Assembly: GCA_965235115.1 (NCBI GenBank)
Contig: OZ249436.1
Span: 14,818,001 to 14,882,000 of the forward strand
Direction: 5' to 3'
Length of the DNA stretch: 64,000 nucleotides
From: Laetmonice hystrix
Taxonomy: Eukaryota
Position numbers: made by a program. Below are positions 45,001 through 48,000 of the stretch, in pieces. Position 1 is the first letter of the stretch, and the number at the start of each line of letters is the position of its first letter.

Positions 45001-48000
45001 ATAAGAGTGGACTTGATTTAGAATTTCATAGAAAGTAAACAAGATTCTTTTAGGTAGCTAGTTGGTTTATCACTTCCCTCCTTCTAGCCCTATTACGAAG
45101 TATGAGATATGACTATTTTTTCTGTAGCCTTTCTAGAAGAAGTTGGTAAGAATTTTTAATAATTCTTCTGCTTGCATCGGTTACTTCATGTCATCGTCCC
45201 TCATTCTGTATGGGCCTAGTGCCAATTTAAGTCGGCCCAGTGGTCGCACAGCCGTAATAAACATCACTTACATAAAGTTTCAAAAGGGAAGAACACACCT
45301 ACACCTACGCCTATAAGCCTACGTATGCAAAAAAAAAAAAATCTAGAATTGACCAAAGACTCTCAGAAATGGTTTCTGGGCCTGGGTCTGGACTGGGAAT
45401 TTACGGCGCGTCCTGGTAATCTTATGGCGCCATCTGGTGTGAATATTGAAGCAGCGAGCATGGTCGTCCGAATTTGACACCAAACGGCATTTTGGTTCCC
45501 TCTCATTATTGTTTTGAGGCCTTTTGATATTTCAGAAATAGAGGAATCACACGATGCAGTCCCACCTTGTATGTATATGATGTTATCCGGAATGCTTGCT
45601 GAACAGATTTGCTTGAATACACGAAGGCACTGTCGTTTTCCGCCAGTGGTTAGGCTACCACTGTTCAGGACGGGCTGTGAAGCATGTCAGCCAACGTGCA
45701 CTCACAATTTTAAATGAGATCTCCCACAGATTGTCAGGATCAGAATAACTCGTGGATAATCCATCGAAAGAGAAATCTTAACGTGTGTTATCGTAGCCGT
45801 ATAGGTTCCCCGGTATGCCTACCTATTCTACTCATTTTTTTCATTTTGGATTTTCTTTAGATGTCACTAAGGCTACTCAATAAGTGGCGCTTAAACATAT
45901 ATTTTCAATTTGGTACAGGTTAACCATATATGATAATGATCAACAATTGCATATAATATTGGATATAACTGAACAAGGCGAAGTGAGGGAACTATTCAAA
46001 CTACAGCTCAAAGTGGAAACCTGGGAGCGCCACCTTGCGACATCCCGCGGAATCAGATAAATCAGATTCCGTCTAAAAGGCCTACTGCTACTAGACCATT
46101 GGCTACCAATTCAAACAGGTTCAATTTTTTCAACCCGCGCTGTAAAAAAAAACAACGTTTTCCAATGAAGGAAATTAAGGGTAAATTTAAATTGGAGGAA
46201 TGGTGTTTAATTTTAAATCTTAAAAGATACTGAGAAGATAATAGTTGTTCACACAGGCCTCACACGTTTAAAAACAAAATGTGACATCAGAACAGGGAGC
46301 TGTTTGCCTTACGAGGTTATAAATACTCTCCAAGGTGTCTTCAGGAATATTCACCCTCCAGGGCGAGATTGACGAGAGGACTTAGAACACGTGCGTACAT
46401 GCGTAATTACGCCTAAAAAAGGGATATATCATTGGGTTTCTGCGGCATCGATTCATTCTGTCAGAGTGAATCTGGTCGGTTGTGACTTGATCGCACATAC
46501 TTCACTCGGGACACTGTCACATACCACTTTATAAGTCGATCACTAGACACTGTTGATTGAAACGGTACCTCTTCCAGACCGTCCCAGCGACAGGGCTTAA
46601 CATGTCGTCTCCTGCTGTGTCATGATTAATGTCATGTACATGTGTCATAAACCTGGAGTCGCAAGGCCCTCACACACTCGTGTACTACTGCATAATGCGC
46701 ATCATGTTTCGCCTTCACCACCTCTATACCGTATATAATATGGATTTTATAATTAAAATATGAGAAATACATAAATTCCACATGTATGATATTGCGATAT
46801 GTCCGGTAAGTGTTTTAAGTGATTCGTACTTTGCACGGTGCAGTTCAAAATTTGGCAGTTATGGTTATTGTGAGAGAAAAATCTTTTCTTCCTCAATCCA
46901 GGAAAAAAACATTGACAGATTTCGTAATATTAACAACACATGCCCATTTAGGACACCATTTGAAGATAGAGCGTCTGAAATTTACCACGCCATCATTACG
47001 TACGGAGTTGTGGTACTATCCCAAACAGAACTATTTATTACAGTGATGAGAAGAGTTTAACTTTTTTATTTTCTAGTGAACATGCCTTTCTCAAAAATGC
47101 TGAAGGAGAAAAGTACCCCTACAAGTCCGCGACGAAGTGGGGGACGTATCGGCTCCTCGGTGTCAAGGTGAGTGTCACTGGCAGTGGTACTGGAAACTAG
47201 GAGTAAGCCCTACCTCATGTTTGTTGTGGCTTGTTTGTTCTTCTTCTTCTTATTCTTCTTGTCCGTCTTTCTTCTTTTTTATTTCTACTTCTTTTTTCTT
47301 CTACTCGGTCGTCGTCGTCATCTCCTCCTTCGTTTTAACCTTGTTCTTGTTCTCCTTTCTCCTGTTCTTCTTTTTCTTCTTAATTTCCTTCTCTATTTTC
47401 TTCGTCTGTTTCATCGTCCTTTTCCTCCTTCATCTTCTACTGTTTCTACTTCTACTTTTTCTTCTACGTCGTCGTCGTTACCTCTTGTTCTTGTTCTTCT
47501 TTCTCTTTTCAGTTTAATTTCTTTCTCTATATTCTTCGTCTCTGTTTCATCATCCTTTTCCTCCTTCATCTTCTACTGTTTCTACCTCTACTTTTGCTTC
47601 TAATTCGTCGTCGTCGTCGTCGTCATCTCCTTCCTTTTGTCCGTGTTCTTGTTCCTCCTGTTCTTTTTCTTCATAAAGTGCTACAGACATCACATAGGCA
47701 CCTTTACTGATCTAAATAGATCACTGTGAGTTGTAGACGTATCCGGGATAGGTTTTTCTGATAAATTAACATTTGTAAAAATATTGACAATTTGAATCAC
47801 GCTGCCCGTGATGACGTAAGCACCAACTGGCGGGTGGACCCTGGACGGGAGGCGACTGGCAGACAGATGGCCAGCAGAAACCGGCTGAATTGGTCATTTT
47901 GATCACGGATTACAGTTCACGTTGTTGTACAACAACCGTTCCTTTACAGAACAACGAGAACATTACAAGTATTATCGGGATCTGGTGCAAAATTTCATAG

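What the first reader, a model, noticed from the sequence alone, without database searches (positions are those of the whole stretch)
45536..45568. Junction-encoded dependency: AA-starting cassettes create a TAA stop unless a G-ending exon precedes them
Seen in sequence: the CKT exon ends in a lone T (ACC T|). Candidates 45536 (AA ATA...) and 42876 (AA CCA...) start with AA, so a direct splice gives T|AA = stop. Candidates 38121, 42538, 42876 and 44411 all end in G, which gives G|AA = Glu. Exon 45536 ends in T and restores T|TG = Leu into 47077. Inference: productive inclusion of these exons is coupled to an upstream cassette (for example 44411 plus 45536). The unpartnered form would be an NMD target or a channel truncated before RCK2.
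Basis: partly seen in the sequence, partly recalled or inferred. Interest (0 to 1): 0.65.

Follow-up and report, generated by a model that had tools for sequence, protein, structure and literature searches.

The report
Chance pseudo-exon in BK channel intron
The letters are as described, but this 33-base "exon" in an invertebrate BK potassium-channel gene looks no better than chance look-alikes in the same intron, so the proposed exon-pairing rule is unproven arithmetic and probably ordinary.

Summary
Every sequence statement in the finding is correct. The window holds an invertebrate (not human) BK/Slo1 channel gene on the + strand. Exon 33527-33603 ends ACC T|gtaagt. Windows 45536-45568 and 42876-42911 start with AA, so a direct splice gives T|AA. 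Windows 38121, 42538, 42876 and 44411 end in G. Window 45536 ends in T, and 47077 starts with TG.

None of this exceeds chance.
- The 13.5-kb intron holds 645 open, multiple-of-three AG..GT windows on the sense strand and 565 on the antisense strand.
- Windows as good as or better than 45536 number 3 on the sense strand and 4 on the antisense strand.
- About a quarter of such windows (80 of 295 acceptors) start with a dinucleotide that makes a stop after T.
- "Ends in G" is the donor consensus: 12 of 15 constitutive exons here end in G.
- The four proposed G-ending partners all lack the +5 G that 15 of 15 constitutive donors carry.

No transcript or cross-species data could be reached, so whether these windows are ever spliced stays open. 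Most likely 45536 is an unused pseudo-exon. If it is spliced directly, it would act as a stop cassette. The coupling idea is possible but unsupported. Interest is low.

The parts
33527..33603 (+). Constitutive BK exon encoding (R)ACYYCKQCHGDILDVRAIKKCRCKT. It ends in a lone T (phase 1) before gtaagt.
   Evidence: It aligns to Aplysia BK residues 598-623 and human BK 607-634 (E 1e-5).
45536..45568 (+). The flagged 33-nt window tttcag|AA ATA GAG GAA TCA CAC GAT GCA GTC CCA CCT T|gtatgt. T|AA is a stop if it is joined to 33603.
   Evidence: Donor PWM is 6.1, below 14 of 15 leave-one-out constitutive scores. Equal-or-better windows number 3 on + and 4 on -. Codon-usage rank is 21% of null. No PDB hit for the surrounding open frame.
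42876..42911 (+). Second AA-starting window, 36 nt, ttcag|AACCAA...CATG|gtactc.
   Evidence: Donor PWM is -0.3 with no +5 G. Equal-or-better windows number 25 on + and 18 on -. Codon-usage rank is 63% of null.
44411..44473 (+). G-ending window proposed as a partner, 63 nt, peptide (S)LNKKTPAATNATTEANPSET.
   Evidence: Donor is CCG|gtactt, PWM 5.3, no +5 G. Codon usage is in the top 0.6% of 1210 null windows. Equal-or-better windows number 3 on + and 2 on -. No PDB hit.
42538..42597 (+). G-ending window, 60 nt, TAG|gtatat.
   Evidence: Donor PWM is 3.5. Equal-or-better windows number 2 on + and 1 on -. Codon-usage rank is 32%.
38121..38216 (+). G-ending window, 96 nt, ATG|gttaaa.
   Evidence: Donor PWM is -0.7, with 4 of 9 matches to CAG|GTAAGT. 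Equal-or-better windows number 26 on + and 19 on -. Codon-usage rank is 5%. No PDB hit.
47077..47167 (+). Next constitutive exon (91 nt, linker). It starts with TG, so T|TG is Leu. Its length, 1 mod 3, is needed to reach the frame of exon 53901-54039.
   Evidence: ttttctag|TG...AAG|gtgagt, leave-one-out donor score 10.6. No BK hit in the PDB, which shows how fast this linker diverges.
53901..54039 (+). Exon that carries the start of the RCK2-side conserved sequence, ...[28 protein letters not shown].
   Evidence: It aligns to Aplysia BK 700-727 at E 2e-9.

Best explanation
The window 45536-45568 is most likely an unused pseudo-exon. It is a short stretch that by chance has an AG in front, a GT behind, a length divisible by three and no internal stop. 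It lies in the 13.5-kb intron between the RCK1-end exon (33527-33603) and the linker exon (47077-47167) of an invertebrate BK/Slo1 channel gene.

The 'junction-encoded dependency' is codon arithmetic that follows from two ordinary facts. First, the intron is phase 1 and the split codon's first base is T, so any downstream acceptor followed by AA, AG or GA makes a stop. Second, most donors end in G. No pairing rule needs to be encoded.

Shown here: the letters, the gene identity, the frame logic and the chance rates. Inferred: that the window is not spliced at a meaningful level.
For: - Gene identity. Exons in the window match BK channels of fly, human and Aplysia at roughly 70-80% identity in the most conserved exons, judged by eye from the printed alignments. 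I therefore take it for invertebrate, not human.
- The minimal model needs none of the five windows. Exon 33603 leaves 1 nt, exon 47077-47167 is 91 nt, and exon 53901 starts with the third base of a codon.
- Chance rate. There are 645 open 3n windows on the sense strand, 565 on the antisense strand and 568 +/- 52 in 200 Markov simulations. Windows as good as 45536 number 3, 4 and a mean of 1.8 respectively. Windows inside the full constitutive range of signals number 32 (+) and 31 (-).
- Stop-making first dinucleotides are found at 80 of 295 (+) and 64 of 295 (-) acceptors.
- G at the last exon base is found in 12 of 15 constitutive exons.
- +5 G is found in 15 of 15 constitutive donors but in 1 of 5 candidates.
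- Candidate donor scores are -0.7, 3.5, -0.3, 5.3 and 6.1, against leave-one-out constitutive scores of 4.9-10.9.
- The three constitutive T-ending donors are followed by gtaagt, gtaagt and gtgagt. 45568 has gtatgt.
- The CKT exon has no credible alternative donor that would change the T. The other phase-1 GT sites score 2.0 or less, against 9.9.
Against: - This intron sits where vertebrate BK genes carry their best-known cassette site (STREX; recalled, not tested). Real cassettes here are therefore plausible a priori.
- 45536 has a good acceptor (ttgatatttcag) and the only candidate donor with +5 G. Its signals fall inside, though at the low end of, the constitutive range.
- 44411 has codon usage in the top 0.6% of null windows, and 38121 in the top 5%.
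- The minimal model has 49 residues between CKT and [10 protein letters not shown]. The Aplysia BK chain has 76 between the aligned residues 623 and 700. This leaves room for about one or two cassettes.
- My splice-site model rests on only 15 exons that I picked by homology and consensus. Several constitutive exons in the window were not located and are not in it.
- The sense strand has slightly more good windows than the simulations. For windows inside the constitutive range, 5% of simulations reached the observed 32.
Confidence: 0.68

Rival explanations
1. Stop (poison) cassette. 45536-45568 is a real, regulated exon that is spliced directly after 33603. The T|AA junction ends the reading frame after ...CRCKT. 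The message is then degraded by nonsense-mediated decay, or it yields a channel subunit with the pore and RCK1 but no linker, RCK2 or calcium bowl. Either outcome would lower or modify BK current.
For: - The stop at the junction is certain if the splice occurs. A second AG six bases on gives T|AG as well.
- 45536 has the best donor of the five candidates and a good acceptor.
- Truncated Slo-1 splice variants are on record in Trichuris nematodes, with a suggested modulatory role (PMC4270693, passages read).
Against: - Signals of this quality occur as often on the antisense strand (3 against 4).
- No transcript or conservation evidence could be obtained.
- The Trichuris truncations arise from retained introns near S4-S6, not from a cassette at this site.
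Confidence: 0.12
2. 45536 (and 42876) are coding micro-exons that are productive only when a G-ending cassette such as 44411-44473 lies upstream. The junction then reads G|AA = Glu. Unpartnered products are removed by decay, which enforces the pairing.
For: - The arithmetic holds for every named pair.
- 44411 has coding-like codon usage, in the top 0.6% of null.
- The linker of the minimal model is 27 residues shorter than in the Aplysia BK chain.
- Splicing decisions in C. elegans slo-1 are interdependent, as described in PMC4039745 (passages read).
Against: - G-ending is the donor consensus, seen in 12 of 15 constitutive exons, so it is no sign of design.
- All four partners lack +5 G and score at or below the bottom of the constitutive range.
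- 2 of 5 windows starting with a stop-making pair is expected by chance (P = 0.26).
- The model needs two or more unverified exons to be real and co-regulated.
- The slo-1 coordination works through intronic motifs, not junction codons.
Confidence: 0.05
3. The stretch belongs to something else: an antisense or nested transcript, or a decayed mobile element. The sense-strand open window would then be incidental.
For: A 107-codon stop-free frame lies on the minus strand at 45363-45686 and overlaps the window.
Against: - Eight stop-free frames of 90 codons or more occur in this intron alone.
- No repeat copy of the region exists elsewhere in the window.
- There is no Rfam match in the window.
- There is no PDB match for the sense frame. 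The minus-strand frame was not searched.
Confidence: 0.03

Closest known systems
Intronic pseudo-exons (exon-like stretches with usable-looking splice sites that are not spliced)
   Same: An AG..GT window with passable signals inside a long intron, occurring at the rate of strand and simulation controls. A paper titled 'The human genome contains over a million autonomous exons' (PMC10760453) came up in a search. I saw only the search listing and the start of the abstract.
   Different: Non-use is inferred here, not measured.
Poison exons coupled to nonsense-mediated decay (AS-NMD)
   Same: Inclusion would place a premature stop far upstream of the last exon junction. General reviews came up in a search, and I saw only their listings (PMC7764535, PMC13542418).
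   Different: The stop would be made at the junction codon, not inside the exon. Known poison exons are defined by transcript evidence, NMD sensitivity and often high conservation. None of these could be tested here.
Intragenic splicing coordination in C. elegans slo-1 (Glauser et al. 2011, as described in PMC4039745)
   Same: It is the same gene family, with several alternative sites whose choices are interdependent (passages read).
   Different: That coordination was measured in transcripts and depends on an intronic motif, not on a junction stop codon. The original paper (PMC3251113) is not held, so I know it only through PMC4039745.
Truncated Slo-1 splice variants of Trichuris (PMC4270693)
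   Same: Slo-1 messages with premature stops exist in that animal. One alternative exon occurs only in the truncated forms (passages read).
   Different: The cause is intron retention around S4-S6, not a cassette between RCK1 and RCK2. The paper's supplementary figures, which show the exon maps, were not seen.
Vertebrate BK cassette site in the RCK1-RCK2 linker (STREX site)
   Same: The position is the same in the protein, just after the ...KKC.CK. motif (for the alignment; the location of STREX is recalled, not from a call).
   Different: No sequence similarity of any candidate to a BK chain in the PDB was found. STREX itself was not compared.

Membership tests
BK / Slo1 channel gene (host gene) | Pore-loop exon with a K+ selectivity filter matching BK | tested here: met
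   Exon 22025-22195 matches human BK residues 256-312 at E 3e-24. The filter reads TVGFGD where the printed human BK chains read TVGYGD.
BK / Slo1 channel gene (host gene) | RCK1 C-terminal segment and RCK2 segments | tested here: met
   The ORF stretch 33525-33743 (holding exon 33527-33603) matches Aplysia BK 598-623. Stretch 53884-54063 (exon 53901-54039) matches 700-727. Stretch 57534-57842 (exon 57558-57782) matches fly Slo 798-876 at E 4e-32. An aspartate run, [12 protein letters not shown], is present in the translation at 59430-59669. Naming it the calcium bowl is recalled.
Alternative cassette exon | AG and GT flanks, frame-preserving length, no internal stop | tested here: met
   All five windows meet this.
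Alternative cassette exon | Signals stand out from the intron background | tested here: not met
   For 45536 the count is 3 sense against 4 antisense, with a simulation mean of 1.8. The other four are similar.
Alternative cassette exon | Seen in transcripts, and conserved in related species | not testable with these tools
   No eukaryotic genome or transcript collection was open.
Poison exon (AS-NMD) | Inclusion creates an in-frame premature stop | tested here: met
   T|AA arises at 33603^45536 and 33603^42876. T|AG arises with the second AG at 45540-45541.
Poison exon (AS-NMD) | Included isoform exists and rises when decay is blocked | not testable with these tools
   This needs RNA from the animal.
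Coordinated (mutually dependent) cassette exons | Non-random co-occurrence of the two exons on single transcripts | not testable with these tools
   This needs long-read isoform data.
Coordinated (mutually dependent) cassette exons | A credible partner exon upstream | tested here: inconclusive
   44411 has codon usage in the top 0.6% of null. Its donor gtactt lacks +5 G and scores 5.3, and equal-or-better windows number 3 on the sense strand and 2 on the antisense strand.

The most novel reading that the evidence does not exclude
A junction-codon interlock in a BK channel. A 33-nt micro-exon (45536-45568) can be translated only when a G-ending cassette such as 44411-44473 has been spliced in before it. 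The stop made at the bare junction (T|AA), together with decay of that message, would enforce pairwise exon use in the RCK1-RCK2 linker without any dedicated RNA element.
Probability: 0.04. Interest if true: 0.5.

Novelty: not a real feature. Interest (0 to 1): 0.12.

Why it matters
If the pairing were real, it would be a simple, purely codon-level way to couple two splicing choices in an ion-channel gene already known for coordinated splicing. It would be easy to test with long reads.

As it stands, the value of this check is cautionary. In a phase-1 intron whose split codon starts with T, about a quarter of all chance exon look-alikes give a junction stop. Most donor-like sites end in G. So this pattern will turn up in any long intron and should not be read as design without transcript evidence.

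Tried and rejected
- PDB sequence searches with the candidate peptides or open frames (38121, 44411, and the frame through 45536) gave no hit up to E = 10. This is uninformative, because the constitutive linker exon 47077-47167 also finds no BK chain.
- Self-comparison of each candidate +/-300 nt against the whole window found no repeat copy.
- An Rfam scan of the whole window found nothing at gathering scores.
- A search for inverted repeats in 33500-47200, which could pair and coordinate exons, found nothing next to 45536. Only weak or transposon-like pairs lie elsewhere.
- I looked for an alternative donor of the CKT exon that would replace the T. None is credible.
- A window-only tblastn of every exon and candidate peptide looked for duplicated or mutually exclusive exons. 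It found only a short tandem duplication at 31910/31975 and noise-level hits.
- The codon-usage test has low power. Constitutive exons themselves rank between 4% and 55% of the null.
- Glauser et al. 2011 (PMC3251113) is not held.
- Literature searches for BK splicing in invertebrates, and for decay-linked BK variants, gave no paper on a cassette at this site in a mollusc-like BK gene.
- I did not identify the organism.

Full report
**What is in the window.** The + strand carries a BK (Slo1, large-conductance calcium-activated potassium) channel gene.
- Stop-free stretches translate to recognisable BK segments. Searched one exon or ORF at a time, they match BK chains in the Protein Data Bank.
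- Stretch 57534-57842, which holds the RCK2 exon 57558-57782, matches fly Slo at E 4e-32, and human and Aplysia BK at about 2e-30.
- Pore exon 22025-22195 matches human BK 256-312 at E 3e-24.
- Stretch 33525-33743, which holds exon 33527-33603, matches Aplysia BK 598-623 and human BK 607-634.
- Stretch 53884-54063, which holds exon 53901-54039, matches Aplysia BK 700-727 at E 2e-9, far better than human at 2.5e-3.
- Identity in the most conserved exons is only about 70-80%, judged by eye from the printed alignments. I therefore take the contig for an invertebrate, perhaps nearer to molluscs. It is not human.
- The window has no N.
- I searched the model exon by exon.

**The observation.**
- The CKT exon ends AAA ACC T|gtaagt at 33603.
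- 45536-45568 is tttcag|AA ATA GAG GAA TCA CAC GAT GCA GTC CCA CCT T|gtatgt, 33 nt.
- 42876-42911 is ttcag|AA CCA...CAT G|gtactc, 36 nt.
- 38121-38216 (96 nt), 42538-42597 (60 nt) and 44411-44473 (63 nt) end in G.
- 47077 starts with TG.
- Hence T|AA is a stop, G|AA is Glu and T|TG is Leu. A second AG six bases inside 45536 would give T|AG, also a stop.

**The frame logic of the host gene.**
- Exon 33603 leaves one base, and exon 47077-47167 is 91 nt.
- Exon 53901-54039 begins with the third base of a codon.
- So the gene reads through with none of the five windows. All five are multiples of three and are optional at best.
- A stop at 33603^45536 would end the protein at ...CRCKT. That lies before the linker, before the RCK2 segments and before the aspartate run at 59430-59669.

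**Is it more than chance?** I defined 15 constitutive exons from homology plus splice consensus. Several exons of the gene in this window were not located and are not in this set. From the 15 exons I built a 9-position donor matrix and counted pyrimidines at -18 to -3 of the acceptor.
- In intron 33604-47076 I listed every AG..GT window of 18-150 nt that is a multiple of three and open in phase 1. There are 645 on the sense strand and 565 on the antisense strand. 200 first-order Markov simulations of the intron gave 568 +/- 52.
- Windows at least as good as each candidate on both signals:

| Candidate | Sense | Antisense | Simulation mean |
|---|---|---|---|
| 45536 | 3 | 4 | 1.8 |
| 44411 | 3 | 2 | 0.9 |
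| 42538 | 2 | 1 | 0.6 |
| 42876 | 25 | 18 | 18 |
| 38121 | 26 | 19 | 20 |

- Windows inside the whole constitutive range number 32 (sense) and 31 (antisense), with a simulation mean of 20. Five percent of simulations reached 32.
- Other introns behave alike.

**The two 'design' features are ordinary.**
- Starting with a stop-making pair after T (AA, AG or GA) holds for 80 of 295 sense acceptors and 64 of 295 antisense acceptors. AA alone accounts for 37 and 35.
- Two or more of five at p = 0.2 has probability 0.26.
- Ending in G is the donor consensus: 12 of 15 constitutive exons end in G and 3 end in T.
- The proposed partners are the weak point of the model. All 15 constitutive donors have G at +5, but only 45568 among the five candidates does.
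- Candidate donor scores are -0.7, 3.5, -0.3, 5.3 and 6.1. Leave-one-out scores of the constitutive donors run from 4.9 to 10.9.
- The three constitutive donors that end in T are followed by gtaagt, gtaagt and gtgagt. 45568 is followed by gtatgt.

**What speaks for some of the windows.**
- A codon-usage log-ratio compared 717 codons of the constitutive exons with intron trinucleotides. It puts 44411 in the top 0.6% of 1210 null windows, 38121 at 5%, 45536 at 21%, 42538 at 32% and 42876 at 63%.
- The test is weak. True exons rank from 4% to 55%.
- The minimal model has 49 residues between CKT and [10 protein letters not shown]. The Aplysia chain has 76 between the aligned residues 623 and 700. 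An extra cassette or two would fit.
- This intron lies at the position of the vertebrate STREX site (recalled, not tested).
- So a real cassette somewhere in this intron is plausible, with 44411 the best guess. The two AA-starting windows carry no such support.

**Other checks.**
- No repeat copies of the candidates exist in the window.
- There is no Rfam match.
- There are no helpful inverted repeats near 45536.
- No alternative donor would change the T of the CKT exon.
- The candidates gave no PDB similarity. This is uninformative, since the constitutive linker exon gives none either.

**Literature.**
- PMC4039745 (passages read) describes the work of Glauser et al. 2011. Three alternative sites in C. 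elegans slo-1 are chosen interdependently, and a point mutation in one intronic motif disturbs distant choices. The original paper is not held.
- PMC4270693 (passages read) reports Trichuris Slo-1 messages with premature stops from retained introns. One alternative exon was found only in the truncated forms.
- These show that coordination and truncation occur in this gene family, by other means and at other sites.
- My searches found no paper on a junction-stop coupling or on cassettes at this site in a mollusc-like BK gene.
- Supplementary exon maps of PMC4270693 were not seen and might show more.

**Verdict.**
The interpretation cannot be decided here and is not favoured.
- Most likely (about 0.68), 45536-45568 is an unused pseudo-exon and the 'dependency' is arithmetic that any phase-1, T-ending exon produces with a quarter of the chance windows downstream.
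- Next (about 0.12) is a real stop cassette.
- An antisense or nested element is about 0.03.
- The remainder is unassigned.

**What stayed unchecked.** Transcripts and cross-species conservation stayed unchecked.

Noticed in passing
window 31884-32014: A tandem duplication of about 65 nt carries the 3' splice site and the first ~40 nt of constitutive exon 31975-32127. The upstream copy encodes the same [13 protein letters not shown] (13 of 13 residues). It offers a second acceptor at 31910, which is 65 nt upstream and therefore out of frame.
   Followed up: partly
window 22025-22195: The pore exon reads TVGFGD where the human BK chains printed in the alignments read TVGYGD. Phe in place of the filter Tyr is unusual for BK as far as I recall.
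   Followed up: partly
window 39462-39497: This is the best-scoring open 3n window of the linker intron (ttgcag|AC...CGG|gtgagt, donor score 9.5, 36 nt). T|AC would read Tyr. Its codon-usage rank is poor, at 87% of null.
   Followed up: partly
window 39924-40193 and 40703-40882: Two close inverted-repeat pairs (42 nt at 86% and 34 nt at 91% complementary) lie inside the intron. They look like small transposon remnants.
   Followed up: no
window 38183-38215 vs 59452-59486: The end of candidate 38121 translates to NDANGQFLNID. This resembles the start of the aspartate-run exon, [11 protein letters not shown] (8 of 11). E is 0.07-0.36 in a window-only search, the same level as several clearly random hits.
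   Followed up: partly
window 44281-44341 and 47190-47700: A TGA-type microsatellite lies just upstream of the 44411 acceptor. A long CT-rich low-complexity tract lies just downstream of exon 47077-47167.
   Followed up: no
window 45363-45686 (- strand): A 107-codon stop-free frame lies antisense to the flagged window. It is one of eight such frames of 90 codons or more in this intron, and it was not searched.
   Followed up: no
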